IMG/VR virus record: IMGVR_UViG_2713896784_000032 | From: a virus | Taxonomy: Duplodnaviria; Heunggongvirae; Uroviricota; Caudoviricetes | DNA length: 15,041 bases | Direction: 5' to 3' (one strand) | Shown: piece after piece, positions 1 to 15,041 of the stretch | How the letters are laid out: every line of letters starts with the position of its first letter | Numbering within the stretch: the first letter of the stretch is position 1 | The notes under the pieces: model-generated | Told to the model about the DNA's origin: nothing | Seen by the model: only the letters and a program-made list of their open reading frames with translations | Database searches by the model: none | Made by a program: the position numbers and the translations under genes

Positions 1-1002
1 TTACCCTCTATTGTCAAAAGGGTTCAATTCAACAGCAGCCTCTAAATGACCTGGAGCAAAATGCGCATAACGCATAGTCATTTTTATATCGCTATGCCCC
101 AGTATTTTTTGCAACACAAGAATATTTCCACCCCGCATCATAAAATGACTGGCAAACGTGTGACGTAGCACATGAGTTAATTGCCCATCAGGAAGCTCGA
201 TCTTCGCTCTCTTAATTGCAGCGTCAAAAGCCTCATAACATGGTGAAAATAGCGCTCCTCGTTTTTTAGGAAGCATAGCTTGCAATTGAGGTGAAATCGG
301 TACAGTGCGGTTCTTCTTTCCTTTAGTTTTAACAAATGTGATTCGACCGGGCAGTACTTGAGATTGCTTTAATCCTTCTGCTTCACTCCACCGAGCACCA
401 GTCGCAAGCCCAATACGGACAACAACCCCCAAATCTTTATTCCGTGACTCATCACACGCAATCAGAAGGCGTTCAATCTCATCTACATACAGAAACGCCA
501 GTTCCTTTTCTTCCTCACGAAACTTGCGAATACCAGTCAGGGGGTTTTCACCAGACCACTCCCCAAGGCGCTTCAGTTCGGCAAAAACAGCATGTAGATA
601 TGACTGCTCGCGATTAACGGTTGCTTCACTAAGTTTTTTCTTCCCCTTGGGATTCCATTCTCCTGATAGCCTTCTTTCCCGATAAGTAGCAAACATATTT
701 TTGTCAAACTGAGAAGCAAATGGATCTCCCAGCCTGGAACAAATCGCCTCAAGTTTGACTTTGCGCTCTGCACCAGAGGACAAGGTTTTACCGTACATCT
801 CAAACCAACGAGCAATCAACTCAGAAAGACGAGGACCAGAACCATCTTGAAACTCGTCTCCAACTCTACTATTCATTAAACGGCGCTCATAAGAGAGCGC
901 CTCACTTTTTGTCGCAAACTGTTTACGAATGCGTTTTCCCGATGCCCCGTAGGGATAACATTCACAAAGCCATTTACCTGATGGAATCTTACGAACCGAC
1001 AT
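1..1002 (-). CDS. int: Tyrosine recombinase (phage integrase), P2 Int-like
   Basis: 333-aa ORF. C-terminal region ...LTHVLRHTFASHFMMRGGNILVLQKILGHSDIKMTMRYAHF... carries the tyrosine-recombinase HxxR...Y signature. N-terminal GKRIRKQFATKSEA and central ITFVKTKGKKNRTVPIS match my recollection of phage P2 Int. Only 5 nt separate it from the upstream gene and it has no obvious Shine-Dalgarno, suggesting co-transcription. The ORF ends at the window edge, so any att site lies outside the window. Confidence 0.9.
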   Translation of the reverse strand: MSVRKIPSGKWLCECYPYGASGKRIRKQFATKSEALSYERRLMNSRVGDEFQDGSGPRLSELIARWFEMYGKTLSSGAERKVKLEAICSRLGDPFASQFDKNMFATYRERRLSGEWNPKGKKKLSEATVNREQSYLHAVFAELKRLGEWSGENPLTGIRKFREEEKELAFLYVDEIERLLIACDESRNKDLGVVVRIGLATGARWSEAEGLKQSQVLPGRITFVKTKGKKNRTVPISPQLQAMLPKKRGALFSPCYEAFDAAIKRAKIELPDGQLTHVLRHTFASHFMMRGGNILVLQKILGHSDIKMTMRYAHFAPGHLEAAVELNPFDNRG

Positions 1003-1007
1003 TTTAG

Positions 1008-1355
1008 TTACTTATCACATAAATCAAATGCAGCCTTAGTGACATCCCCCAGACTCTTTTTTAACCCTGGGGCGGCATCATTATCTAGCCAAAATGGATT
1101 ATTGTTATCTAACGGTAACGCACCAAATGTTTTACCTTTTATTCGAGCCAAACCTGTAAGTGCATATAACTTATTATCGTCAAAATTCATCACATAAGGA
1201 TTACCATCAAGACACTGTAATTGAACCTCATCAGTATTAAATGGCCATACCCCATTGAAACTCTCACGTTCAATAGTTTTAAAAGGCATTGCGACGGCGG
1301 AAAAAGAAAACATAGATAAAAAAGTAACTAATAGTTGAACCTTTTTTACTTTCAT
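1008..1355 (-). CDS. Small secreted protein, DUF2511/YebY-like (tentative family assignment)
   Basis: 115-aa ORF with an N-terminal signal-peptide-like segment (MKVKKVQLLVTFLSMFSFSAVA) and two cysteines (one near the middle, one near the C-terminus). The WPFNTDEVQLQC ... KKSLGDV ... LC pattern resembles what I recall of the E. coli YebY family. Shine-Dalgarno-like GAGGT lies upstream of the start. Confidence 0.55.
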   Translation of the reverse strand: MKVKKVQLLVTFLSMFSFSAVAMPFKTIERESFNGVWPFNTDEVQLQCLDGNPYVMNFDDNKLYALTGLARIKGKTFGALPLDNNNPFWLDNDAAPGLKKSLGDVTKAAFDLCDK

Positions 1356-1384
1356 ATCATTACCTCAATTTAGCTCAAGTAAGA

Positions 1385-2035
1385 TTACAAATTAAAAAAC
1401 GCCCTAGAAATGACACCGCCTACCAAAACCCCTACGCAGATAAAGAATATTATTTCTTTTGGATAAAGTCGGATTAATTCTGAAGCACGAAGTCGGACTT
1501 CTGGTAAGGTCGAACTCTCTATGTGGCTTGATGCCGATTGTTGCTCTAACCACGACAATGCAGACTGTAACTGAGAACGAGTAAGATCGTTTAAACGTCC
1601 TGTACCGAAATTGATATGGCAATACCGCAGAAGTTTTTGTCGAAGTCCACAGTCTTCACTGTTACGTAGTAATAAACTTACAAGAGCCTTACAGGCATCA
1701 TGATCTTTACATCGCTCAAGCATTGCATGCAGAAAACTCTCCGCTGTTTTATATTGATTTACTGTCATATCATCAATACCAGCTACACCAATCTCCGCAT
1801 GTACTTTTTGCCAAATAATAAACGCTTCAGTATTGCTAGCTTCTGCAATAGCAGCAACCAAGCTATTTAGCTCCTTACGCTGAGCCTTAAGCAAAGGGCG
1901 ATCGTCATCATCATTATTCGAAGGGATTGCGATATTGACGGTATGAGAACCATCATATCGCTCTATCTGAATATTCTTTTCGTGAAAATCACGCCCAGCA
2001 ACGCGATTGTTTGAACCGTTTGAGTTGACGGCCAT
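1385..2035 (-). CDS. Hypothetical tail-anchored membrane protein (cytoplasmic domain plus single C-terminal transmembrane helix), unknown function
   Basis: 216-aa ORF. Strong Shine-Dalgarno (GGGAGG) 5 nt upstream of the ATG, 15 nt after the stop of the upstream HTH gene. C-terminal hydrophobic stretch IIFFICVGVLVGGVISRAFF. An acidic DDDD run near the N-terminus. N-terminal motif NNRVAGRDF is shared with the C-terminus of the upstream HTH protein. Confidence 0.6.
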   Translation of the reverse strand: MAVNSNGSNNRVAGRDFHEKNIQIERYDGSHTVNIAIPSNNDDDDRPLLKAQRKELNSLVAAIAEASNTEAFIIWQKVHAEIGVAGIDDMTVNQYKTAESFLHAMLERCKDHDACKALVSLLLRNSEDCGLRQKLLRYCHINFGTGRLNDLTRSQLQSALSWLEQQSASSHIESSTLPEVRLRASELIRLYPKEIIFFICVGVLVGGVISRAFFNL

Positions 2036-2050
2036 GTCACCTCCCTACTA

Positions 2051-2455
2051 TCACCTACCCTTAGTTTCGTTATAGTCACGACCAGCGATACGGTTATTAC
2101 CACCAGAAATATTTAACTCACGTCCTGATGGCTGAGTTTCCTTTTCACTGATCGCACCTTTTAAAGCCCCAATCACCGCGTTTTTCACATCTAACGAAGC
2201 TGCTCGAAAGCGAGTAATCAATTCCTGCTCATCATCGTTATAAGTTTCAGGTGAGTGAATTCCCAACACAACATACTGAACATCAAGGCCAAAACGAGAC
2301 AGCGCTGCCAAATACGCAGCATCAGGAAAGCTATCTCCTTTCTCATATCTAAGCTGAGTTAGCTTTTTGACTCCACCAATGTCGCTCATGGCAACTTGAC
2401 TAAGTCCCAATCTTTCCCTTTCCTCACGCAACCGCCGACCAATATCATTTTTCAT
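2051..2455 (-). CDS. XRE-family helix-turn-helix transcriptional regulator; candidate immunity repressor (position equivalent to P2 C)
   Basis: 134-aa ORF. N-terminal region RLREERERLGLSQVAMSDIGGVKKLTQLRYEKGDSFPDAAYLAALSRFGLDV fits a Cro/C1-type HTH. First gene of the leftward operon, divergent from the Cox-like gene, as in the P2 C-int arrangement. Confidence 0.75.
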   Translation of the reverse strand: MKNDIGRRLREERERLGLSQVAMSDIGGVKKLTQLRYEKGDSFPDAAYLAALSRFGLDVQYVVLGIHSPETYNDDEQELITRFRAASLDVKNAVIGALKGAISEKETQPSGRELNISGGNNRIAGRDYNETKGR

Positions 2456-2530
2456 ACAAAAACCTTGACAGGTATCTTTTTTGATACCAAAATGATTTCA
2501 CGAGCTATTAGATGATCACAATATACCACT
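2456..2530. promoter_or_regulatory. Divergent promoter/operator (switch) region between the repressor-like gene and the rightward early operon
   Basis: 75-bp intergenic region between divergent starts. Consensus -35 hexamer TTGACA at 2465..2470 on the plus strand, immediately followed by a perfect palindrome GGTATC-N6-GATACC (2471..2488). A further GATACC copy lies at 2549..2554. Exact -10 elements are not assigned with confidence. Confidence 0.4.
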
Positions 2531-2737
2531 ATGAAACAAGTTCTTCACGATACCAGATCACGCATTCCGCGTAACACCGCCACAGGTCCAAGACTGGCAC
2601 TTCGGCTGTCCCTCGAGGAGCGAGCCGTCATTGATGAAATGGCAGCTAAAGAACAACGCTCATCCTCTAACATGGCGCGCATGATCTCCCTTCGCGGCCT
2701 AGAGCTAACCCAGAAAGAACAAAACAAATCTTCCTGA
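2531..2737 (+). CDS. Small ribbon-helix-helix-like DNA-binding protein (tentative)
   Basis: 68-aa ORF. The segment RLALRLSLEERAVIDEMAAKEQRSSSNMARMI looks like a beta-strand followed by a helix, as in CopG/Arc/MetJ-type proteins. No clear Shine-Dalgarno upstream, so the call is uncertain. Confidence 0.4.
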   Translation: MKQVLHDTRSRIPRNTATGPRLALRLSLEERAVIDEMAAKEQRSSSNMARMISLRGLELTQKEQNKSS

Positions 2738-2753
2738 TCAGGAGGCTAGTGGG

Positions 2754-2957
2754 ATGTCAGGTATAACCATCAATATCAATGTGAATGCCCCCAATGTATC
2801 CCTGCAGAAATATGCAGAGATAACAGGTATCCCTCTTAATACATGCAAAAAGATGTTGGCTGACGGTCGAATTATTATCCGCCCCAAACGCGCCAAAATG
2901 GAAAAGCCTGAAGTAAACCTTGTGGCGATGTTAAAAGACGCTTTGGCTAACAGCTAA
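2754..2957 (+). CDS. Cox/Apl-like small HTH protein (candidate excisionase and lysogeny-lysis switch regulator)
   Basis: 67-aa ORF with a strong Shine-Dalgarno (AGGAGG, 2740..2745). The segment VSLQKYAEITGIPLNTCKKMLADGRI resembles the HTH of P2 Cox as I recall it (IPYQEFAKLIGKSTGAVRRMIDKGKL). Its position divergent from the repressor matches P2/186 organisation. Confidence 0.55.
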   Translation: MSGITININVNAPNVSLQKYAEITGIPLNTCKKMLADGRIIIRPKRAKMEKPEVNLVAMLKDALANS

Positions 2958-2978
2958 AACAATGAACAGAGCACCATC

Positions 2979-3329
2979 ATGAAAAAAAACGCTAATAATC
3001 CATACTCCAAATTTCGTAATGGCGTAGAACGCCATGTACACCACGTCGCTACCAGTGCATCACGTAGTAACAGTCGCTATAACCTGAACGAGACGCATGC
3101 AACACCGGATGGCCACGCTGTAAAACAAATCGGCGAACATGCCTGGCTGATTGAGAAAGCTGGAATCGTGGTCCACAAATGCCCACGCAATCCGTTTACC
3201 GGGAACCGCATTTTTGCATTGAACTGCGGCGACAATCACTTCGGGCAGGATTTCACATTATACGAAGCACTTCGCACGGTTGATCGTCTGCTTCGCGGGC
3301 AAAGTTTTATTAAACAGGCTGATTTATAA
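2979..3329 (+). CDS. Hypothetical protein (early operon)
   Basis: 116-aa ORF, same strand and tightly packed with neighbours. No recognisable domain by eye. Confidence 0.45.
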   Translation: MKKNANNPYSKFRNGVERHVHHVATSASRSNSRYNLNETHATPDGHAVKQIGEHAWLIEKAGIVVHKCPRNPFTGNRIFALNCGDNHFGQDFTLYEALRTVDRLLRGQSFIKQADL

Positions 3330-3339
3330 CAGGTGCTTT

Positions 3340-3618
3340 ATGACCAAAGAGCATGCACAAGGTGTATTTATCCGTTTTATTGATTTTCGCGGTGAACTGT
3401 TATTACGCGCATCAGCCATTGACGGAATTGTTCCATCCGAAAAAAACGCAGCTACTTACGTTTATCTGAACGGTACGCGCCTGACTGTGGAGCTTCCGTA
3501 CCAGACCGTACGAGAAATCATTAGCGAAGCTGAAAAGGCTCGTCAGGTTAATGGCGATGAACCCTATATCGAAATTATTTGTATGGATTCAGAAGCTGAA
3601 ATTCAGAAAGCAGATTAA
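3340..3618 (+). CDS. Hypothetical protein (early operon)
   Basis: ATG at 3340, with AGGTG 4 nt upstream and 10 nt after the preceding stop. 92-aa product MTKEHAQGVFIRF.... The six-frame track begins this ORF at 3280, overlapping the previous gene; the internal start is preferred. Confidence 0.45.
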   Translation: MTKEHAQGVFIRFIDFRGELLLRASAIDGIVPSEKNAATYVYLNGTRLTVELPYQTVREIISEAEKARQVNGDEPYIEIICMDSEAEIQKAD

Positions 3619-5599: not shown

Positions 5600-5830
5600 A
5601 TGGCAGACCGCAAACAGCACCGCGCTATCGCGGAGCGTCGTCACATCCAGACTGAAATCAACCGCAGACTTTCCCGCGCATCACGCGTCGCGCAAATCAT
5701 GCACATCAATATGCTGCATGAGCGCAGCCACGCACTATCAAACATTTATTCCGCCTCTGTTTTCAGCTATCTGGCGGATGATCTGCACGAGTTTCAACAG
5801 CTCATCCAGCAGCAAAACAAACTCCATTAA
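5600..5830 (+). CDS. Hypothetical small basic protein
   Basis: 76-aa ORF with AGAGG 7 nt upstream of the ATG. Protein-like composition (MADRKQHRAIAERRHIQTEINRRL...). Preferred over the overlapping 205-aa low-complexity ORF 5289..5906. Confidence 0.4.
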   Translation: MADRKQHRAIAERRHIQTEINRRLSRASRVAQIMHINMLHERSHALSNIYSASVFSYLADDLHEFQQLIQQQNKLH

Positions 5831-6274: not shown

Positions 6275-9097
6275 ATGACGGCAGAGTACATCAGGGACTG
6301 GCAACAACCGCGCCACGCAGTGGGGCGTGAAGGAACGGGGATCCCCGCTCCTGAATCCGCGCTTTCCTCCTGGCTGGATGCCTACCGGGTAGAGAACGAG
6401 CGCCGCCAGGAAATGGCTGATGCGGCGTTCTCCGCAACGCCGCTGGGCAACCTGATTAATAAAAGCCTGGACGCACAGGAAAAACAGGACAAAACCATCA
6501 CACTGGCAGGAGACGCCAGAAAACAGGCACGCGGTGCGGTGGATGAAGCCATGGCCTCGCTGCGCCTGCTGCCGTCCTATCTGCGCGATCCGCTTATTCG
6601 CCACCTCTCCTTCCTGCGCAAAAAACAGGAAGCCGATCGTCAGAAAGGCAAAAAGAGCTGGCAGGCTGAACGCTACGCGCGCGGAAACCTGCGCAAAATA
6701 TTCGAACGTCTGGAGCGCACCGATCACCGCTGGCTGACACAGGGTTATCGCTCCCTTGCCGGACGCGAACGCCTGGACGATTTGCTTTACCTGCCGCAGC
6801 TCAACAAACACCAGATACAGACGCTGGCCACCATGACGGCGGCGATGTTCAGCAGCACCTTCGAAAAACTCTGCGATGGCTTTGGCGCGACCGATGGCGA
6901 ACTGACCATGGATGTAACGCTGAAGGCGTATCAGATGCTGGCCCGCATGGCGTTACACCTGCACGCCATGCCTCCACATTATGACGCACTGACAACAGAC
7001 AAAGACCGGAGGAACGAACCGGACACGGAGCTGCTGCCGGGCGCAATCCTTCGCCTGACCTGTGCGGAATGGTGGAAACGCAAACTGTGGCTGTTACGTT
7101 GCGAGTGGAGAGAAGAACAACTCCGCGCCGCCTGTCTGGTTTCCAGAAAAACATCGCCCTATCTGAGCCAGGACGCGTTAAGCGAGTTTCGCGCACAGCG
7201 CGAGAAAACACGCGATTTCCTGAAAAGTTTCATGCTGGAAAACGAAGACGGGTTCACGATTGATCTCGAGACAGTGTATTACGCGGGAGTAAGTAACCCG
7301 GTTCACCGTAAGGCAGAAATGATGGCCACCATGAAGGGGCTGGAACTTCTGGCCGAAGCCCGTGGCGACAAAGCGGTGTTTCTGACTGTCACCTGCCCGT
7401 CAAAATACCACGCTACAACAGAGAACGGTCATCCGAATCCCAAATGGAACGGGGCCACCATGCGCGACTCCAGCGATTACCTGGTTAACACGTTTTTTGC
7501 GGCGGTCCGCAAGAAACTGAACCGCGACGGCCTGCGCTGGTATGGCATCCGCACGGTGGAGCCTCACCATGACGGCACCGTGCACTGGCATATGATGGTC
7601 TTTGCTCATCCGGAAGAAATCGACACCATTGTGTCCCACACCCGCGATATTGCCATTCAGGAAGATCGTCACGAGCTGGGCGATGATATTACTCCGCGCT
7701 TTAAGGCGGAGTATGTCGACGGCTCAAAAGGCACGCCAACCAGCTACATCGCCACCTACATCGGAAAAAACCTGGACAGCCGCGCCGTGGATGGCATCGA
7801 CCCGAAAACAGGCAAACCACGCGTTGACCACGAAACCGGAAAATCAATGACCGAGAGCGTGGAACGCGCCATTGGCTGGGCGCGCCTTCACCGGGTCCGC
7901 CAGTTCCAGTTCTTTGGCATCCCCTCCCGTCAGGTGTGGCGTGAACTGCGTCGCCTTGCCAGCCAGATGGCACGCAACCCGGAAGGCCCGCAACGGCTGA
8001 AGGATGACGCAATGGATGCGGTTCTTGCTGCCGCTGATGCCGGATGTTTTACCACCTACATTGAGAAACAGGGAGGCGTACTTGTTCCACGCAAGGACTA
8101 CCTGATTCGCACCGCCTACGACCTCGCAGATGAGCTGAACGATTACGGCGAACAGAGCGTACAGATTTACGGGATCTGGTCACCACTCATCGGGGAATCC
8201 TCCCGTGTGTGCACGCACCCGGATAACTGGAAGCTGGTAAGACGTAAACCGGGAGTAGAAGACAGCGCCCGCGAAAATGGTTTTGACCTTCAGGGCGGCC
8301 CTGCCGCCCCTTGGACTCGTGGCAATAACTGTCCCCGTGTACAGGAAACGGACAACAACGGGACAGAACAGCCGGAAGAACGGCCAGCACCGTGGCCGCA
8401 GCTTCCTGACGGCGTTGACGTGAACGAATGGATGCGCTCACTGAAACGGCACGAACGCCGGGCGCTGATGCGTTCGCTTCGTGACAAACAGGCAAAAAAC
8501 AGCAGTGATGAAATGCAGAGCTGGACACAGAGCCGCAAACAGCAGCGGCCTTTGCCTGATAACCACGAATTACTCGCTAAAGAATGGCGGGAGTCTGCTG
8601 AATCTCTCGGCCTGCATATCGGTGAACAACAGATGCAGCACCTGTTACGGGGCGGCAGTCTGTACGTTGACGGCAGCATCATTGCACCGCAGGGATTTGA
8701 AATTGTACGCAAACCGGATACCCGCCCGGACAGCCGAATCACGCAGCTCTGGCAGCGCCTGAGCCGTAATCATGGCGTAAGCAGCACGGAGATCCGCCAT
8801 AACCCGGTCGCCAGCTATCTGGCACAGCTGGGGGCATCAGACCCTGAAGCCGCCGCACGCCTGGCATCCACACTTCAGCAGGACCAGAACACCATGAAAA
8901 CACCCGTTACCGTGCTTTCTGACATGCTGCGCGCCATCCGCGACGCAGAGCACGCACAGAGAATCAGTGAAACCACTGAACGCGCCAGCCGCAAAGCAGA
9001 CCTGCTGCGGGGTGGCCTGACCAGTGGAAACAAAAAACAGACAGAAACGGGACTCACAAATCCCGTAAATGAGCAAAAAACGCGCCGCGATATATGA
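6275..9097 (+). CDS. Rolling-circle replication initiation endonuclease, phage P2 gpA-like (HUH superfamily)
   Basis: 940-aa ORF. Contains VTCPSKYH, RTVEPHHDGTVHWHMMVF (HUH-type metal-binding motif, about 7561..7600) and YIATYIGKNLD (paired Tyr YxxxY, about 7744..7775). These match the conserved core of P2 gene A protein as I recall it (TLTAPSKYH ... VEPHHDGTPHWHMM ... YIAKYISKNIDG). Longer than P2 A (about 760 aa). Confidence 0.85.
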   Translation: MTAEYIRDWQQPRHAVGREGTGIPAPESALSSWLDAYRVENERRQEMADAAFSATPLGNLINKSLDAQEKQDKTITLAGDARKQARGAVDEAMASLRLLPSYLRDPLIRHLSFLRKKQEADRQKGKKSWQAERYARGNLRKIFERLERTDHRWLTQGYRSLAGRERLDDLLYLPQLNKHQIQTLATMTAAMFSSTFEKLCDGFGATDGELTMDVTLKAYQMLARMALHLHAMPPHYDALTTDKDRRNEPDTELLPGAILRLTCAEWWKRKLWLLRCEWREEQLRAACLVSRKTSPYLSQDALSEFRAQREKTRDFLKSFMLENEDGFTIDLETVYYAGVSNPVHRKAEMMATMKGLELLAEARGDKAVFLTVTCPSKYHATTENGHPNPKWNGATMRDSSDYLVNTFFAAVRKKLNRDGLRWYGIRTVEPHHDGTVHWHMMVFAHPEEIDTIVSHTRDIAIQEDRHELGDDITPRFKAEYVDGSKGTPTSYIATYIGKNLDSRAVDGIDPKTGKPRVDHETGKSMTESVERAIGWARLHRVRQFQFFGIPSRQVWRELRRLASQMARNPEGPQRLKDDAMDAVLAAADAGCFTTYIEKQGGVLVPRKDYLIRTAYDLADELNDYGEQSVQIYGIWSPLIGESSRVCTHPDNWKLVRRKPGVEDSARENGFDLQGGPAAPWTRGNNCPRVQETDNNGTEQPEERPAPWPQLPDGVDVNEWMRSLKRHERRALMRSLRDKQAKNSSDEMQSWTQSRKQQRPLPDNHELLAKEWRESAESLGLHIGEQQMQHLLRGGSLYVDGSIIAPQGFEIVRKPDTRPDSRITQLWQRLSRNHGVSSTEIRHNPVASYLAQLGASDPEAAARLASTLQQDQNTMKTPVTVLSDMLRAIRDAEHAQRISETTERASRKADLLRGGLTSGNKKQTETGLTNPVNEQKTRRDI

Positions 9098-9173
9098 AGC
9101 GCGCACAAAACAGGCAAAAGCGGGATTTAAAAATCCTGTAACCGATTAATTAATCAACATAAGGAAAAGCGAC
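9030..9173. promoter_or_regulatory. Candidate promoter/centromere-like (parC-like) region upstream of parM
   Basis: Cluster of palindromes and repeats: ACGGGA-N8-TCCCGT (about 9047..9066), near-palindrome GGATTTAAAAATCC (9123..9136), AT palindrome ATTAATTAAT (about 9144..9153), and recurring CAAAAAAC/CAAAACAG. Overlaps the 3' end of the rep gene. No clean iteron array was identified. Confidence 0.3.
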
Positions 9174-10133
9174 ATGAAAATTTGTATCGACGACGGCTCC
9201 ACCAACATCAAGCTGGCATGGACTGAGAACGGCGAACGCCGCAACGCCATCAGCCCGAACAGCTTCAAGTCGGAATGGTCTGCGCCATTCGGTGGCACGC
9301 AGCCCGCGAACTACATGCTTGATGGCGTGCGCTATGGTTTTGATCCGGTCAGCGATCGCTTTGTCCAGACGACCGACACGCAATACCAGTACAGCGATGT
9401 GAATGTAATTGCCATTCATCACGCGCTGGTCAAATCAGGCATCACACCACAGGAAGTGGATGTGGTTGTCACCCTGCCACTGAGCGAGTATTTCGATACA
9501 AACGCACAGCCGGACATGGCCAACATCAACCGCAAAAAAGCGAACGTCATGCGCCCGGTGGAGTACCAGAACGGCGAAGCATTCACTATCCGTAACGTAC
9601 GGGTTATGCCTGAATCCATTCCTGCTGGCTTTAAGGCACTGGCTGACATGAGTCCGTTTGAATCCCTGCTGATTGTGGATTTGGGCGGAACCACGCTGGA
9701 TGTGGCAAAGGTTCAGGGGCAACTGGCAGGTATCAGCCAGGTGTTTTGCGATCCACACGTAGGCGTTTCTCTGATGGCCGATGCCGTACTGTCGGTGATG
9801 GCCACTAACGGTATGCGCACCAGTCACCACATCGCCAATACCATTATCGAACATCGCCATGATGAAGCCTGGCTGCGCCAGCACATCCACAATGACGCGC
9901 ATTACGCCAGCCTGATGGCGGTTATTCGTGAAAAGGAAGAAACACTGAAACAACGCGTGATCCGCGCGCTGGCGGTTTTTTCGGGTTACGGGCGGGTGAT
10001 GGTTGTCGGTGGCGGGGCGGAGATTGTGGCAACCGCTATCCGCGAAGCCTGCGGAGTTAATGCGACTTTCATCGCGGACGGGGTGCCACAGTTTGCTCTG
10101 GTTAATGGGTTGTACGCAATGAACAAGGAGTAA
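9174..10133 (+). CDS. parM: Actin-like plasmid segregation ATPase ParM (StbA)
   Basis: 319-aa ORF. N-terminus MKICIDDGSTNIKLAW plus SPNSF, YSDVNVIAIHHAL, VMPESIPAG, LIVDLGGTTLD and VVGGGAE motifs align closely with plasmid R1 ParM/StbA as I recall it. Shine-Dalgarno AAGGA upstream. Confidence 0.85.
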   Translation: MKICIDDGSTNIKLAWTENGERRNAISPNSFKSEWSAPFGGTQPANYMLDGVRYGFDPVSDRFVQTTDTQYQYSDVNVIAIHHALVKSGITPQEVDVVVTLPLSEYFDTNAQPDMANINRKKANVMRPVEYQNGEAFTIRNVRVMPESIPAGFKALADMSPFESLLIVDLGGTTLDVAKVQGQLAGISQVFCDPHVGVSLMADAVLSVMATNGMRTSHHIANTIIEHRHDEAWLRQHIHNDAHYASLMAVIREKEETLKQRVIRALAVFSGYGRVMVVGGGAEIVATAIREACGVNATFIADGVPQFALVNGLYAMNKE

Positions 10134-10137
10134 ACCA

Positions 10138-10452
10138 ATGACGACACCAACCAGACGGATAAGTTTCTATCTGAAGCCCGCCGCCGTCAAGAGTGAACAG
10201 GAGGCGTGCAATTACCTCGATAGCCTGCCAGCCTCCGAACGCAGCCGCGCGCAACGCGCGGCCTTTCTGGCTGGGCTAGCACTCATAAAGCGCAACCCAG
10301 CATTTGCCTACTGGATGGCCGAATGGCCAGAGGACAACCTCCCCTTCAATACCGTTAGCATCAAGGAAACATACCAGGCTAATCAGCCTAGCGGAGTTGA
10401 ATGCAATTTTTATAAAATAAAAAAGAATATTCAGACCTTATTCCCAGAATAA
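10138..10452 (+). CDS. parR: Partition adaptor ParR (StbB)-like DNA-binding protein
   Basis: 104-aa ORF starting 4 nt after the parM stop, with a strong Shine-Dalgarno (AAGGAG). N-terminal region RISFYLKP...YLDSLPASERSRAQRAAFLAGLAL resembles R1 ParR (DSIPQGERSRLNRAALTAGLAL). Confidence 0.7.
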   Translation: MTTPTRRISFYLKPAAVKSEQEACNYLDSLPASERSRAQRAAFLAGLALIKRNPAFAYWMAEWPEDNLPFNTVSIKETYQANQPSGVECNFYKIKKNIQTLFPE

Positions 10453-10546
10453 TCTGATAATTGTATGTGAACTAATAAAATACATTGTCATACGAGTCAC
10501 CTGTACTCCCTGTTGATGCCAGCAGTTTTGCTTCTTTTAGTCGCTC

Positions 10547-10596
10547 NNNNNNNNNNNNNNNNNNNNNNNNNNNNNNNNNNNNNNNNNNNNNNNNNN
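10547..10596. other. Run of 50 ambiguous bases (N), probable gap or masked placeholder
   Basis: Directly visible in the sequence; lies inside the IS3-family remnant. Confidence 0.99.
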
Positions 10597-10886
10597 ACAT
10601 AGACGAAGCCCTGCCATGTGCTGACGTAAGTAAAATCAGCCACCCACAGCTGGTCAGGACGTTCTGCCACGAACTGACGGTTTACGCGGTCGCCTGCGGA
10701 AACGGCTTTCCGGCTGACGGTAGTACGGACCTTTTTACCCCGGAGAACACCGGCAAGTCCCATAACCGCCATGAGGCGCGCCACTGTACATCTGGCCACC
10801 CTGATACCTTCGCGTAACAACTGGCGCCAGACTTTACGCACACCGTACACCTGATGATTTTCATCGTATACGCGCTGTATCTCTCT

Positions 10887-10936
10887 NNNNNNNNNNNNNN
10901 NNNNNNNNNNNNNNNNNNNNNNNNNNNNNNNNNNNN
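10887..10936. other. Run of 50 ambiguous bases (N), probable gap or masked placeholder
   Basis: Directly visible in the sequence; lies at the OrfA/OrfB junction region of the IS3-family remnant. Confidence 0.99.
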
Positions 10937-11053
10937 AAGCGGAAGCCTGGCGAAGGATATCGTTACTGCGGCGCAGTTCACGATTTTCACGTTCCAGCCA
11001 TAAAGTTATGTTCCTGACGTATGTATTCGTCCCGCAGGAATCAACCAACTGAT

Positions 11054-11443
11054 TTATCTGAATTTATCATGCCCCTCAACTCTGATTTTATTCATCTTGT
11101 TTACCGAATCGGGTATATCTGATAACTGTCCCGATAAGACTTTTTGTTTCGCCAGCATAATCTCTTTTTCAAGCTTTTGAAGTTCTTTTATATAGTCATT
11201 CTTCCCTTCTTCATCAGCCGGTGAAATGCTCTCAGGAAGACGCTTCATTGACTCATCTACAGCATCATCCATTCTGTCAAGAGCTTCAAGAAGCTCCTTT
11301 TTATCCATTGATGACTGAAGTACACTCATATTCCTTGCAAGAACTTGCATGCTTTCATCAAGTTCTTCTGCCACTGTAATCCCCCCACACAAAAAATATA
11401 ATGCCATACCACAGCTGATTATAACTTTATTGCTTTTCTGCAT
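11054..11443 (-). CDS. cybC: Soluble periplasmic cytochrome b562 family protein
   Basis: 129-aa ORF with a signal-peptide-like N-terminus. The mature region EELDESMQVLARNMSVL ... VEGHDKFR aligns with E. coli cytochrome b562 (ADLEDNMETLNDNLKVI ... NAYHQKYR), including the Met and C-terminal His heme ligands. Shine-Dalgarno GGAG 5 nt upstream. Lies downstream of the catalase-peroxidase on the same strand. Confidence 0.75.
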   Translation of the reverse strand: MQKSNKVIISCGMALYFLCGGITVAEELDESMQVLARNMSVLQSSMDKKELLEALDRMDDAVDESMKRLPESISPADEEGKNDYIKELQKLEKEIMLAKQKVLSGQLSDIPDSVNKMNKIRVEGHDKFR

Positions 11444-11455
11444 AATTTCTCCTTC

Positions 11456-11478
11456 ATGAGGGAGGTGCCCTCCCTCAT
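11456..11478 (-). other. Intercistronic stem-loop between the catalase-peroxidase and cytochrome b562 genes
   Basis: Perfect 10-bp stem (ATGAGGGAGG / CCTCCCTCAT) with a 3-nt loop in the 43-nt gap between the two genes. On the transcribed (minus) strand it is not followed by a U-run, so it is more likely an mRNA structural element than a terminator. Confidence 0.35.
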
Positions 11479-11486
11479 CAGTTTTA

Positions 11487-13712
<2,226 letters not shown>

Positions 13713-13873
13713 TTAAGGGAAATTCGCATGTTGTATACAAAAGTCAACTTTATTGATGCAACAGGATATACCTATTGCTGGGATAGATACTACAGACAAA
13801 AAATACTAAGGGGTTCCAAGCCGCAACTGACGATGCCGTTGAGTGCTGCGCAGACCTGAATATTCCCTTCTTT

Positions 13874-14059
13874 GTGGATGTCAGAAACAAAAAGCTGGTC
13901 TTCTGGTTTGTACGTGTTGATGACGAAGGGTATCCTGAAATAGCCCGCTGCACGGAGCGGGAGTTTGCGACCATTCTTGCCGGTATCAGCGCCGGCGGCA
14001 TGTACTGCCCGGAGTGTGGCACGGTTCACTGGCCGGACGGAGTTCCCCCGCCCTTCTGA
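13874..14059 (+). CDS. Small ORF translationally coupled to the IS91-family transposase gene (possible IS91 accessory ORF)
   Basis: 61-aa ORF containing CPECG. Its TGA stop (14057..14059) overlaps the ATG (14059..14061) of the downstream transposase reading frame. IS91 is known to carry a small ORF upstream of tnpA; homology could not be verified by eye. Confidence 0.3.
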   Translation: MDVRNKKLVFWFVRVDDEGYPEIARCTEREFATILAGISAGGMYCPECGTVHWPDGVPPPF

Positions 14060-14460
14060 TGCTTCCCCGTTTTGCCGACATTTTTCAGCAGGGAAACCGC
14101 TGGCTTAACTGGCTGGAGAAACAACCGGAAGGTTCAGTGCGTCCGGTAGTCATTGAGTCTGTGACAAAAATCATGGCCTGCGGGACCACGCTGATGGGGT
14201 ACACACAGTGGTGCTGTTCATCTCCGGACTGCAGCCACATAAAAAAGGTCTGCTTCCGGTGTAAAAGTCGCTCCTGCCCGCACTGCGGAGTGAAGGCTGG
14301 CGCACAGTGGATACAGTATCTGCTGAGTCTGGTTCCCGACTGTCCGTGGCAGCATATTGTGTTCACACTTCCCTGCCAGTACTGGTCCCTGGTGTTCCAC
14401 AACCGGTGGTTACTGGCAGAGATGAGCCGCATTGCTGCGGATGTGATACAGGAAATCTGC
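14059..14460 (+). mobile_element. IS91-family (rolling-circle, HUH) transposase gene, N-terminal fragment only (3'-truncated)
   Basis: Translation MLPRFADIFQQGNRWLNWLEKQ...KIMACGTTLMGYTQWCCSSPDCSHIKKVCFRCKSRSCPHCGVKAGAQWIQ...QHIVFTLP has the N-terminal zinc-binding CxxC...CxxC region typical of IS91/ISCR transposases. Homology ends near 14460, where IS3-family sequence begins. Confidence 0.7.
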
Positions 14461-15041
14461 CGCCAGGCAGATGTGCGACTACGAACTCGAACCACAATCT
14501 GCCAGTTGCGCCAAATCTGCTGAACCAGACGTTCGCTCCTGCAGCACCAAATCAGGTCTGGGTGGCGGACCTGACGTATGTTGCCACACAGGAGGGATGG
14601 TTGTACCTCGCTGGCATCAAAGATGTTTATACGTGCGAAATTGTCGGCTACGCCATGGGAGAGCGCATGACAAAAGAGCTGACAGGTAAAGCCCTGTTTA
14701 TGGCGCTCAGGAGCCAGCGCCCACCTGCCGGGCTAATCCACCACTCTGATCGAGGTTCACAGTACTGCGCATACGATTACCGGGTCATACAGGAGCAGTT
14801 TGGTCTGAAAACATCAATGTCGCGTAAAGGTAACTGTTACGACAACGCTCCGATGGAAAGCTTCTGGGGAACGCTGAAAAATGAGAGCCTGAGCCACTAT
14901 CGTTTTAATAACCGGGATGAAGCCATCTCAGTAATACGGGAATACATTGAGATTTTCTACAATCGTCAGCGTCGTCACTCTCGTCTGGGGAATATCTCCC
15001 CGGCAGCCTTCAGGGAAAAATATCATCAGATGGCTGCTTAA
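14460..15041 (+). mobile_element. IS3-family transposase OrfB, C-terminal catalytic (DDE) portion; 5'-truncated element running to the window end
   Basis: Translation ...TTNSNHNLPVAPNLLNQTFAPAAPNQVWVADLTYVATQEGWLYLA...HHSDRGSQYCA...SRKGNCYDNAPMESFWGTLKNE...YNRQRRHSRLGNISPAAF shows the IS3-family DDE motifs. Stop codon TAA at 15039..15041. No OrfA or OrfB N-terminus upstream (IS91 sequence instead). Confidence 0.8.

What the first reader, a model, noticed from the sequence alone, without database searches (positions are those of the whole stretch)
1008..2035. Two-gene envelope-targeted cargo inserted between repressor and integrase (candidate prophage-encoded exclusion or defence module)
In P2 the repressor C and int are adjacent and co-transcribed. 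Here two extra genes sit between them in the same operon, with tight spacing and their own ribosome-binding sites: a tail-anchored membrane protein with a cytoplasmic domain of unknown function, and a small secreted two-cysteine protein. Genes expressed from the lysogenic repressor transcript are, by precedent (lambda rexAB, sieB and similar), frequently superinfection-exclusion or abortive-infection functions. A cytoplasmic sensor on the inner membrane plus a periplasmic partner would fit an envelope-level exclusion mechanism. Neither protein matches a defence family I can name.
Basis: inference. Interest (0 to 1): 0.55.

Follow-up and report, generated by a model that had tools for sequence, protein, structure and literature searches.

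The report
Repressor-mimicking membrane partner plus swappable cargo
Between the repressor and integrase of an E. coli O157:H7 P2-like prophage, one gene encodes a membrane-anchored protein whose start copies the repressor's tail and always travels with it, and the other is a small secreted protein in a cargo slot that related phages fill with different genes.

Summary
1008..2035 holds two real minus-strand genes in the repressor-to-int operon of a P2-like prophage at yecA in E. coli O157:H7. About 506 of 5426 complete E. coli genomes carry this module.

The reading as one two-gene defence module is only partly supported.

- **ORF216 (1385..2035)** is a Flk_N-domain, C-terminally tail-anchored protein. 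It is a fixed companion of this repressor type, not cargo. In 62 of 62 distinct loci it follows the repressor. Its disordered N-terminal head (NNRVAGRDFHE) copies the repressor's disordered C-terminal tail (NNRIAGRDYNE).
- **The two motifs co-vary** through 7 sequence variants in P2-like and Mu-like phages (B3, BcepMu, KS10). Matched pairs beat all 20000 permuted pairings. A tail-less repressor relative has no partner.
- **ORF115 (1008..1355)** is a periplasmic YebY-family protein. It sits in a real swap slot (window about 1007..1535) that holds at least 9 cargo types elsewhere, including a homologue of Vibrio phage K139 orf2. It occupies the position of the K139 exclusion gene glo.

Neither window protein matches a known defence family.

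Most likely ORF216 is a membrane-tethered partner or mimic of the repressor tail that modulates the lysogenic switch. ORF115 is most likely an independent envelope moron. Both mechanisms are inferred, not shown.

The parts
2051..2455 (-). Prophage repressor, 134 aa. It has an XRE-type HTH at residues 1-64, two helices at 74-105 and a disordered tail at 105-134.
   Evidence: Pfam gives weak HTH_31 and HTH_3 hits. PHROG matches are transcriptional regulators and repressors. AlphaFold model me796342bfd13 gives the domain layout. 213 relatives were found.
2066..2116 (-). Repressor C-terminal tail motif, LNISGGNNRIAGRDYNE (residues 114-130).
   Evidence: The motif is conserved at the repressor C terminus in all 62 distinct loci and in remote relatives. 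It is predicted disordered, pLDDT 32-45.
1385..2035 (-). ORF216, a tail-anchored inner-membrane protein that accompanies the repressor. It consists of a head motif, a Flk_N helical domain, a variable linker and a C-terminal transmembrane helix.
   Evidence: It matches phrog_5825 at 8.5e-103 and the N-terminal part of NCBIfam Flk at 8e-16. Homologues carry precomputed PF27202 Flk_N. AlphaFold model me5676a59603f gives the layout.
1979..2029 (-). ORF216 N-terminal head motif, VNSNGSNNRVAGRDFHE (residues 3-19), which copies the repressor tail.
   Evidence: The local alignment to the tail scores 62, against 22.9 +/- 4.8 for shuffled sequence (z 8.2). Only 4 of the 10 identical residues use the same codon. 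The two sites were the only matches to the core pattern in 31 kb of six-frame translation that were not obvious noise.
1520..1900 (-). Flk_N helical domain of ORF216 (residues about 46-172).
1388..1465 (-). Tail anchor of ORF216 (residues 191-216; hydrophobic core IIFFICVGVLVGGVI).
   Evidence: The Kyte-Doolittle maximum is 3.03 at residue 195, and this is the only hydrophobic segment. AlphaFold models a helix at 191-214. Flk itself is an experimentally verified tail-anchored protein.
1008..1355 (-). ORF115, a secreted YebY/DUF2511-family protein with a signal peptide at residues 1-22 and cysteines at 48 and 113.
   Evidence: Pfam PF10709 scores 28.4 bits against a cut-off of 21. It matches solved structure 7n0j (YebY) at E 0.0027 with the Trp and both Cys aligned. 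It matches phrog_2950 at 8.7e-40. The leader is hydrophobic.
1007..1535 (.). Swap cassette: the cargo slot plus the 3' end of ORF216 that encodes the linker and tail anchor.
   Evidence: Against E. coli relatives that carry other cargo, homology runs over 1..1006/1010 and resumes at 1536/1539. At least 9 cargo families occupy the slot across 24 lineages.
1..1002 (-). P2-type tyrosine integrase, the last gene of the operon.
   Evidence: Pfam Int_N at 5e-32 and Phage_integrase at 2.5e-22. It lies next to yecA in O157:H7.
2465..2957 (+). Divergent early lytic unit: a promoter-like site at 2465..2493, an Arc-like repressor gene at 2531..2737 and a Cox-like gene at 2754..2957.
   Evidence: The promoter scan matches 10 of 12 positions. 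phrog_3431 scores 4e-27 and phrog_575 scores 4e-26.

Best explanation
The interval holds two separate things, both expressed from the lysogenic repressor transcript.

**1. ORF216 belongs to the immunity cassette.** It is a cytoplasm-facing, C-terminally tail-anchored inner-membrane protein. Its disordered N-terminal head mimics the disordered C-terminal tail of the repressor encoded just upstream.

The most likely mechanism is inferred. Head and tail either pair with each other or compete for one binding site. That site could be the Flk_N helical domain, the repressor core or a host factor such as a protease. Either way the membrane protein would tether, buffer or protect the repressor, and so tune maintenance of lysogeny, induction or immunity. 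The nearest functional precedent is lambda RexA/RexB acting on CI.

**2. ORF115 is an independent moron.** It sits in a swappable slot next to int. It is a soluble periplasmic protein of the YebY/MlbQ fold. It most likely binds a periplasmic ligand or an envelope protein to the lysogen's benefit. That could be superinfection exclusion like K139 Glo, or resistance to a peptide or modulation of copper uptake like its homologues.

**Shown:** gene reality, topology features, family membership, fixed repressor-partner linkage, motif co-variation and slot variability.

**Inferred:** physical interaction, effect on the switch, and any exclusion activity.
For: **Linkage.** In all 62 distinct sequence versions, drawn from about 90 loci, the Flk_N-like gene follows the repressor. 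The gap is 2-18 nt in all but two. The tail and head motifs are both present in every case.

**Co-variation.** The two motifs change together in 7 sequence variants:

| Lineage | Repressor tail | Partner head |
|---|---|---|
| Enterics, Pseudomonas B3/Ps59 | NRxAGRD[YF]xE | same motif |
| Ralstonia | NNVQIGSV | GNVQIGKV |
| Burkholderia KS10 | GITQVGSRV | GIIQVAGDL |
| Metagenome L158, P. aeruginosa | QQFNGPVGTVTTGDVVN | QQFHGAVEQVAAGDIKN |
| BcepMu | QVFHGSVGQA | QEFNKPVGQA |
| Burkholderia P2-like | QNFEGAKIGNHVVGDV | QKFSGEVGQVAGGDV |
| Gilliamella | ..VSGQVSAENIYN | ..VDQVAANNIYN |

Matched pairs sum to 446, against 280 +/- 40 for permuted pairings. None of 20000 permutations reached the observed sum.

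**Protein-level selection.** Only 4 of 10 identical residues share a codon, and nucleotide identity over the motif is 59%.

**The motif, not the Flk_N domain, is the constant.** The B3, Ps59 and Gilliamella partners have the head and membrane segments but no Flk_N domain.

**Modularity.** L010 and L065 share tail and partner but have different HTH domains. The tail-less repressor relative P0356 has no partner. P88 C and K139 cI belong to other repressor types and also have none.

**Disorder.** Both motifs lie in predicted disordered termini.

**Fold.** The Flk_N fold resembles a peptide- and protein-binding three-helix bundle, the Red-beta C-terminal domain.

**Slot.**
- There are at least 9 cargo types, with swaps inside one 90%-identity lineage.
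- The breakpoints are defined.
- A K139 orf2 homologue occurs in the slot at E 3e-49.
- K139 glo is annotated as periplasmic and involved in phage exclusion.
- The int-to-primase interval holds 8% of the defence systems found in P2-like prophages (PMC13586616).
- A TIR-domain protein occupies the corresponding position in a B3-like phage.

**Precedent.** Lambda RexA binds CI.
Against: - No experiment bears on either gene.
- AlphaFold places neither motif confidently on any domain in the monomer models. A complex prediction could not be run.
- Co-variation of two adjacent segments could partly reflect shared descent. It could also reflect occasional gene conversion that is later blurred by synonymous change.
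- The KS10 and Ralstonia partners show no obvious membrane segment, so membrane tethering may not be universal.
- In Ralstonia the two genes are convergent rather than co-transcribed.
- For ORF115, all 46 phage-type YebY-like genes in IMG/VR lie on contigs that also carry the Flk_N-like gene. They diverge in step with it. In Erwinia the YebY-like gene stays adjacent despite a different gene order. A functional tie between the two window genes is therefore not excluded.
Confidence: 0.5

Rival explanations
1. ORF216 and ORF115 form one envelope-level exclusion or abortive-infection module: a cytoplasmic sensor on the inner membrane working with a periplasmic partner.
For: - Both genes sit in the lysogenic operon.
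- Every phage-type YebY-like gene found in IMG/VR (46 of 46) is on a contig that also carries the Flk_N-like gene.
- The two proteins diverge in step, at about 60-70% identity.
- They remain adjacent in Erwinia despite a different order.
- K139 has an exclusion gene at this position.
Against: - The Flk_N-like gene occurs with at least 9 other cargo types. It lacks the YebY-like gene in 19 of 24 lineages.
- The tail anchor leaves 0-7 residues outside the membrane, so the two proteins share no compartment.
- There are no PADLOC hits.
- ORF216's head motif ties it to the repressor instead.
Confidence: 0.12
2. ORF216 is itself a superinfection-exclusion or abortive-infection effector at the inner membrane. 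The shared motif is a common degron or antirepressor-recognition site. Repressor and effector would then be removed together at induction, or the membrane protein would act as a decoy that protects the repressor from an antirepressor or protease.
For: - Both motifs sit at exposed, disordered termini, as degrons do.
- The partner is membrane-bound in most lineages. That places it near FtsH (proximity to FtsH is from established knowledge).
- Genes in repressor operons are often exclusion functions, for example lambda rexAB and K139 glo.
- The Flk_N region gives weak hits to Ant anti-repressor families.
Against: - The motif matches no known degron class that I could test.
- No defence-family hit was found.
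- The middle domain of the partner varies (Flk_N, none, or coiled coil). That fits an adaptor better than a conserved effector.
Confidence: 0.22
3. ORF216 is a prophage copy of the flagellar regulator Flk. It would alter flagellar type III secretion or motility of the lysogen.
For: - It matches the N-terminal part of NCBIfam Flk at 8e-16.
- It has the same tail-anchored topology as Flk.
- The prophage lies about 13 kb from flhDC.
Against: - The score is 58 bits against an equivalog cut-off of 353.
- True Flk proteins are about 340 aa with two repeats and no head motif.
- The family is abundant in Klebsiella pneumoniae, in 754 contigs. That species lacks flagella (established knowledge).
- Partners in B3 and Gilliamella lack the Flk_N domain altogether.
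Confidence: 0.04
4. The tail-head resemblance has no function. It would be a remnant of a local duplication or a chance similarity, and ORF216 would be ordinary cargo of unknown role.
For: The two segments are only about 90 nt apart, which would favour duplication or conversion.
Against: - Shuffle z-scores are 2.7-11.9 in nine lineages. Matched pairs exceed all 20000 permuted pairings.
- Most identical residues use different codons.
- The resemblance persists between proteins whose other parts are unrelated.
- The tail and the partner are absent together.
Confidence: 0.07

Closest known systems
Flk (RflH, 'Fluke'), flagellar type III secretion switch inhibitor of Salmonella and E. coli
   Same: It shares the Flk_N helical domain. 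It has a cytoplasmic N-terminal part held to the inner membrane by a C-terminal tail anchor.
   Different: - ORF216 has one Flk_N unit rather than two, and 216 aa rather than about 333.
- It carries the repressor-like head motif, which Flk lacks.
- It is encoded in a prophage immunity operon.
- It is common in Klebsiella pneumoniae, a species without flagella.
- It scores far below the equivalog cut-off.
Lambda RexA/RexB, co-transcribed with CI from PRM
   Same: These proteins are encoded in the repressor transcript. One of them binds the repressor and shifts the switch, and one is an inner-membrane protein. The system also excludes other phages.
   Different: There is no sequence or fold relation. 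Rex shows no terminal-motif mimicry. An interaction of ORF216 with its repressor is inferred, not shown.
Vibrio phage K139 lysogenic operon cI-orf2-glo-int
   Same: It is a P2-like phage with two extra genes between repressor and int. One of them, Glo, is a small periplasmic protein annotated as involved in phage exclusion. Homologues of orf2 (E 3e-49) occupy the same slot in enterobacterial relatives of this prophage.
   Different: Glo is not detectably related to ORF115. K139 cI is a 215-aa repressor of another type, with no tail motif and no Flk_N-like partner.
[quoted passage not shown]
   Same: ORF115 scores above the Pfam cut-off, has a signal peptide, and keeps the conserved Trp and the Cys48-Cys113 pair. 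The YebY paper already noted yebY genes lying between a recombinase and a phage CI-type repressor in Enterobacteriaceae.
   Different: The similarity to chromosomal YebY is low (E 0.0027). ORF115 is not in a yobA-yebZ-yebY copper operon. It forms its own phage subfamily, phrog_2950.
Pseudomonas phage B3 ORF18/ORF20, Burkholderia phage BcepMu gp17/gp18 and Burkholderia phage KS10 gp13/gp12
   Same: They have the same repressor family, with a partner gene immediately downstream. The partner's N-terminal head copies the repressor's C-terminal tail.
   Different: These are Mu-like transposable phages. B3 ORF20 has two membrane segments and no Flk_N domain. BcepMu gp18 adds a periplasmic Cys-containing domain. 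None has an assigned function.

Membership tests
Flk (NCBIfam NF007987, equivalog) | Whole-protein score at or above the curated cut-off of 353 bits | tested here: not met
   ORF216 scores 58.2 bits. Only residues 37-166 match model positions 20-149 of 339.
Flk (NCBIfam NF007987, equivalog) | Flk_N domain present | tested here: met
   Homologues carry precomputed PF27202 Flk_N. A profile search recovers true Flk proteins of about 340 aa.
Flk (NCBIfam NF007987, equivalog) | C-terminal tail anchor with a cytoplasmic N-terminal part | tested here: met
   There is a single hydrophobic segment at residues 190-214 of 216. AlphaFold models a helix at 191-214. This is a prediction only.
Flk (NCBIfam NF007987, equivalog) | Role in the flagellar secretion-specificity switch | not testable with these tools
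   Indirect evidence argues against it. The family is abundant in Klebsiella pneumoniae, a species without flagella, and it sits in a prophage immunity operon.
YebY / DUF2511 (PF10709) | Pfam score above the gathering cut-off | tested here: met
   28.4 bits against a cut-off of 21, covering residues 28-113 and model positions 2-87 of 87.
YebY / DUF2511 (PF10709) | Signal peptide and the conserved disulfide-forming cysteine pair | tested here: met
   The leader is hydrophobic and ends AVA|MPF. C48 and C113 align with YebY Cys48 and Cys113 and are invariant in the phage subfamily.
YebY / DUF2511 (PF10709) | Location in a yobA-yebZ-yebY copper operon | tested here: not met
   The gene lies between a prophage gene and int. 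The YebY paper reports that other genomic contexts exist.
Known anti-phage defence systems (PADLOC-DB 2.0) | Match of either protein to a defence-system model | tested here: not met
   There are no hits for ORF115 or ORF216 at E up to 1. Among other cargo in the slot, only the K139-orf2-like BRCT protein gives a notable hit, to PDC-S48 at 8.7e-08. The remaining slot cargo hits are marginal, at E 0.001 or weaker.
Superinfection-exclusion proteins of lysogeny modules (K139 Glo type) | Small envelope-located protein encoded between repressor and int | tested here: met
   Position and predicted secretion fit ORF115.
Superinfection-exclusion proteins of lysogeny modules (K139 Glo type) | Sequence relation to Glo | tested here: not met
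   blastp of Glo against the window proteins and all slot cargo found no hit at E up to 1.
Superinfection-exclusion proteins of lysogeny modules (K139 Glo type) | Exclusion phenotype | not testable with these tools
   This needs plaque assays.
P2-like accessory or defence hotspot | Conserved flanks with different gene content in related elements | tested here: met
   The flanks are int and the Flk_N-coding part of ORF216. Breakpoints lie at 1006/1010 and 1536/1539. At least 9 cargo families occur in 24 lineages, with two types inside one 90%-identity lineage.
Tailed-repressor plus head-bearing partner pair (defined here) | Partner N terminus matches the repressor C terminus, and the two co-vary across lineages | tested here: met
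   In the permutation test, 0 of 20000 pairings reached the observed score.

The most novel reading that the evidence does not exclude
The repressor tail and the partner head may form a previously undescribed switch element of temperate phages. It would be shared by P2-like and Mu-like families. A membrane-anchored protein made from, or next to, the repressor transcript would capture or shield the repressor through a matching terminal peptide. Lysogeny maintenance, induction or immunity would then be coupled to the state of the inner membrane, such as envelope stress, membrane proteolysis or an incoming phage.
Probability: 0.3. Interest if true: 0.8.

Novelty: new variant of a known kind. Interest (0 to 1): 0.62.

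Why it matters
The module sits in roughly one in eleven complete E. coli genomes, including O157:H7, O26, O103, O145 and ETEC H10407. Relatives are common in Klebsiella, Salmonella, Yersinia and Serratia, and in classic Mu-like phages (B3, BcepMu).

If the membrane partner really engages the repressor, many non-SOS P2-like and Mu-like prophages would have an unrecognised control input on lysogeny. That bears on prophage induction, satellite-helper conflicts and the engineering of phage switches.

The work also redefines the accessory slot next to int. Its true boundaries run from inside the partner gene to int, and it holds untested candidates: BRCT proteins, DUF8087, a Zn-ribbon plus coiled-coil pair, a TIR protein and YebY-like proteins. 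This gives defence screens a clean place to look.

Finally, the matching terminal peptides make the hypothesis directly testable with simple deletions.

Tried and rejected
- **Complex prediction.** I tried a single-chain fusion of repressor and ORF216 with a paired alignment. 
- **Stop-codon read-through.** The two genes are in frame in many enteric loci, so a repressor-partner fusion was considered. It is rejected. The window has three consecutive stops, TGA TAG TAG, and the frame relation is not kept in B3, BcepMu and several enteric loci.
- **DNA-level duplication or gene conversion.** Rejected as the sole cause because of codon differences.
- **Flagellar role.** Rejected.
- **HTH domain fused to Flk_N.** I looked for a natural fusion that would support the model. 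None was found among 13 longer relatives. One relative is a Rha/Ant-type protein with a Flk_N-like segment.
- **tblastn against 50,697 phage records.**
  - ORF216 matched only phage 520873 and three weak Ralstonia hits.
  - ORF115 matched only phage 520873.
  - In the 520873 record both matches are broken into three pieces and neither gene is annotated.
- **Solved structures by sequence for ORF216.** Nothing meaningful.
- **Nesper 1999 paper on K139.** Not held, so the Glo function rests on the GenBank annotation and on my own recollection.
- **Position-by-position covariation (Y/F) between tail and head within the enteric variant.** No signal by eye.
- **Fc02 gene e4.** In this B3-like phage the gene after repc is co-transcribed in the lysogen. 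I did not verify that e4 is the ORF20 homologue.
Full report
**Where the window comes from.** Bases 1..3400 are 100% identical to the chromosome of many E. coli O157:H7 strains. There the integrase lies next to yecA, at one end of a P2-like prophage. The only sequenced phage with the same region is Escherichia phage 520873 (Xuanwuvirus, 96.9% identity). A 2520-bp query covering int to repressor is at least 80% covered in 506 of 5426 complete E. coli genomes. These include O26, O103, O145 and ETEC H10407.

**Check of the observation.** On the minus strand lie the repressor (2051..2455, 134 aa), ORF216 (1385..2035), ORF115 (1008..1355) and int (1..1002).
- The gaps are 15, 29 and 5 nt. ORF216 and ORF115 have GGAGG and GAGGT ribosome-binding sites.
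- The scan finds no minus-strand terminator in the operon.
- Both ORFs are real genes. Their PHROG matches score 8.5e-103 and 8.7e-40. RefSeq annotates them, and homologues at 56-72% identity exist across Enterobacterales.
- ORF216 has one hydrophobic segment, at its extreme C terminus. ORF115 has a cleavable-looking leader and two cysteines.
- In phage P88, a phage of the same genus as phage 520873, int and the repressor C are adjacent.

**What ORF115 is.** It belongs to the YebY/DUF2511 family. Pfam scores 28.4 bits against a cut-off of 21, and it matches PDB 7n0j at E 0.0027. The conserved Trp and the Cys48-Cys113 pair are in place. [quoted passage not shown] YebY dampens copper import by YebZ. 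The YebY paper had already noted yebY genes lying between a recombinase and a phage CI-type repressor in Enterobacteriaceae.

**What ORF216 is.** It matches the N-terminal part of NCBIfam Flk at 8e-16, far below the equivalog cut-off. Its homologues carry Pfam PF27202 Flk_N.
- The AlphaFold model has a disordered head (residues 1-45), a confident helical domain (49-172, pLDDT about 90), a variable linker and a terminal helix at 191-214.
- Flk itself is an experimentally verified tail-anchored protein that holds the flagellar export gate in early mode.
- True Flk proteins are about 340 aa, have two repeats and lack ORF216's head.
- The ORF216 family is abundant in Klebsiella pneumoniae, which has no flagella. 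A flagellar role is therefore unlikely.
- No PADLOC model matches either protein.

**The two genes behave differently in relatives.** I collected about 90 loci encoding ORF216 relatives from genomes and viral contigs and analysed them by script.
- In all 62 distinct sequence versions, the Flk_N-like gene directly follows an HTH repressor and int lies downstream.
- The interval between the Flk_N-like gene and int varies from 322 to 1850 bp. It holds at least 9 unrelated cargo families:
  - YebY-like proteins
  - a BRCT plus WYL-like protein
  - DUF8087
  - a second BRCT protein
  - a Zn-ribbon protein paired with a coiled-coil membrane protein
  - several secreted or membrane proteins
  - VasI
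- Among 24 lineages (90% identity clusters of the Flk_N-like protein), YebY-like cargo fills the slot in 5.
- One lineage carries two different cargo types, which implies a recent swap.
- Against E. coli relatives with other cargo, homology with the window ends at 1006/1010 and resumes at 1536/1539. The exchanged cassette is therefore ORF115 plus the 3' end of ORF216 that encodes the linker and anchor.
- The second BRCT cargo is a clear homologue (E 3e-49) of orf2 of Vibrio phage K139. The K139 lysogenic operon reads cI-orf2-glo-int, and glo is annotated as a periplasmic protein involved in phage exclusion.
- A 2026 survey lists the integrase-to-primase interval as a minor defence hotspot of P2-like prophages, holding 8% of systems.

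So a hotspot exists, but it begins inside ORF216, not at the repressor.

**The repressor link.** The repressor ends ...LNISGGNNRIAGRDYNETKGR. ORF216 begins MAVNSNGSNNRVAGRDFHEKN....
- The resemblance is present in every enteric locus.
- It is kept at protein level. Only 4 of the 10 identical residues share a codon.
- Remote ORF216 relatives found by a profile search of 1.8 billion proteins keep the arrangement.
- The repressor family also occurs in Mu-like phages. In Pseudomonas phage B3 the repressor ORF18 ends ISVTGDGNRTAGRDFHERKE. The next gene, ORF20, starts NIEVTGSNNIVAGRDFIEN. ORF20 has two membrane segments and no Flk_N domain.
- Other lineages use other sequences, and tail and head change together. 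This holds in Ralstonia, KS10, metagenome L158 with P. aeruginosa, BcepMu and Burkholderia P2-like phages, and Gilliamella.
- Across nine lineages the matched tail-head alignment scores sum to 446, against 280 +/- 40 for permuted pairings. None of 20000 permutations reached the observed sum, and the protein's own partner scores best in 7 of 9 rows.
- Two loci share tail and partner but have different HTH domains.
- A tail-less member of the repressor family, in an E. coli P2-like prophage, has no partner. Cargo follows the repressor directly.
- Both motifs are predicted disordered in the monomer models.

**Interpretation.** ORF216 is best seen as a component of the immunity cassette: a membrane-anchored protein that presents a copy of the repressor's tail peptide.
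- The simplest mechanisms are direct tail-head pairing, or competition of the two peptides for one site. That site could be the Flk_N helical domain, the repressor core or a host factor such as a membrane protease.
- Either mechanism would make the amount, location or stability of free repressor depend on the membrane protein.
- This step is inferred. I could not run a complex prediction, and no experiment exists.
- The nearest functional precedent is lambda, where RexA, made from the CI transcript, binds CI and biases the switch while the membrane protein RexB modulates it.

ORF115 is best seen as a separable moron in the slot, analogous in position and compartment to K139 Glo. A tie between ORF115 and ORF216 is not excluded. 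All 46 phage-type YebY-like genes in IMG/VR lie on contigs that also carry the Flk_N-like gene. The two co-diverge and stay adjacent in Erwinia in a different order. However, the anchor exposes almost nothing to the periplasm, and most lineages lack the YebY-like gene.

**Verdict.** The cargo-slot idea is an instance of a known kind. The co-varying repressor-tail and partner-head pair was not described in the literature I could search. I rate it a new variant of repressor-associated switch modulators. It would matter more if a direct, membrane-coupled control of the repressor is shown.

Noticed in passing
window 10486..15041: From an IS3-family fragment with masked bases onward, the window is 100% identical to the katP region of pO157 plasmids: cytochrome b562, catalase-peroxidase KatP at 11487..13697, and IS600/IS91. 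No complete E. coli genome covers 80% of 9000..15041. The join between prophage and plasmid segment is therefore either an IS-mediated rearrangement peculiar to this source or an assembly chimera.
   Followed up: partly
window 9174..10452: The P2-like prophage carries a plasmid-type partition pair just after its replication gene: a ParM-like protein (319 aa) and a Plasmid_stab_B protein (7.7e-29). This hints at a phage-plasmid lifestyle in this lineage.
   Followed up: no
window 5600..5830 (+): A member of the 'Derepression protein family' (PF25738, 1.1e-07) lies in the prophage's own early operon. Proteins of this name derepress P2-type repressors. It is a candidate third player acting on the tailed repressor.
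   Followed up: no
window 2531..2737 (+): An Arc-like repressor ORF (phrog_3431, 4e-27) is not annotated in RefSeq O157:H7 strain TR01. TR01 instead lists a 45-aa hypothetical ORF on the opposite strand, at locus L001 16545..16682. The phage 520873 record annotates the Arc-like gene.
   Followed up: partly
L109 (Pseudomonas phage B3) 1944..2947; L159 (BcepMu) 1950..3145; L111 (KS10) 2001..3059; L166 (Gilliamella) 2501..3367: Classic Mu-like phages have the same repressor family, followed by a gene whose N terminus copies the repressor's C terminus. The middle domains differ: none, Flk_N-like, or with an added periplasmic Cys domain.
   Followed up: yes
L158 3490..4362: In a B3-like metagenomic phage a TIR_2-domain protein (290 aa) sits two genes after the repressor-partner pair and before the holin. 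It is a likely defence effector in the corresponding accessory position.
   Followed up: no
L006 4647..5513; L066 5158..6036; L107 (K139) 2194..3099: Two families of about 290-aa BRCT-domain proteins are the commonest slot cargo in Klebsiella and Enterobacter. One is homologous to K139 orf2 and gives a hit to the PADLOC candidate PDC-S48 (8.7e-08). Their function is unknown.
   Followed up: partly
L002 (phage 520873) 2048..3065: In the only sequenced phage record that carries this module, both genes are unannotated and match in three pieces each. The integrase is annotated as two separate CDSs and the DUF4761 CDS is shorter than in the window. The record probably contains frameshift errors.
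   Followed up: no
window 2036..2050: The repressor ends with three in-frame stop codons (TGA TAG TAG), directly followed by the ORF216 ribosome-binding site. The two genes are in the same frame in many, but not all, relatives.
   Followed up: yes
L163 2857..3632; L067 5460..6226: A conserved two-gene cargo recurs next to int, with or without the Flk_N-like gene. It consists of a 117-aa protein with two CxxC motifs and a 137-140-aa protein with a coiled coil and a C-terminal membrane helix. It looks like a self-contained module.
   Followed up: no
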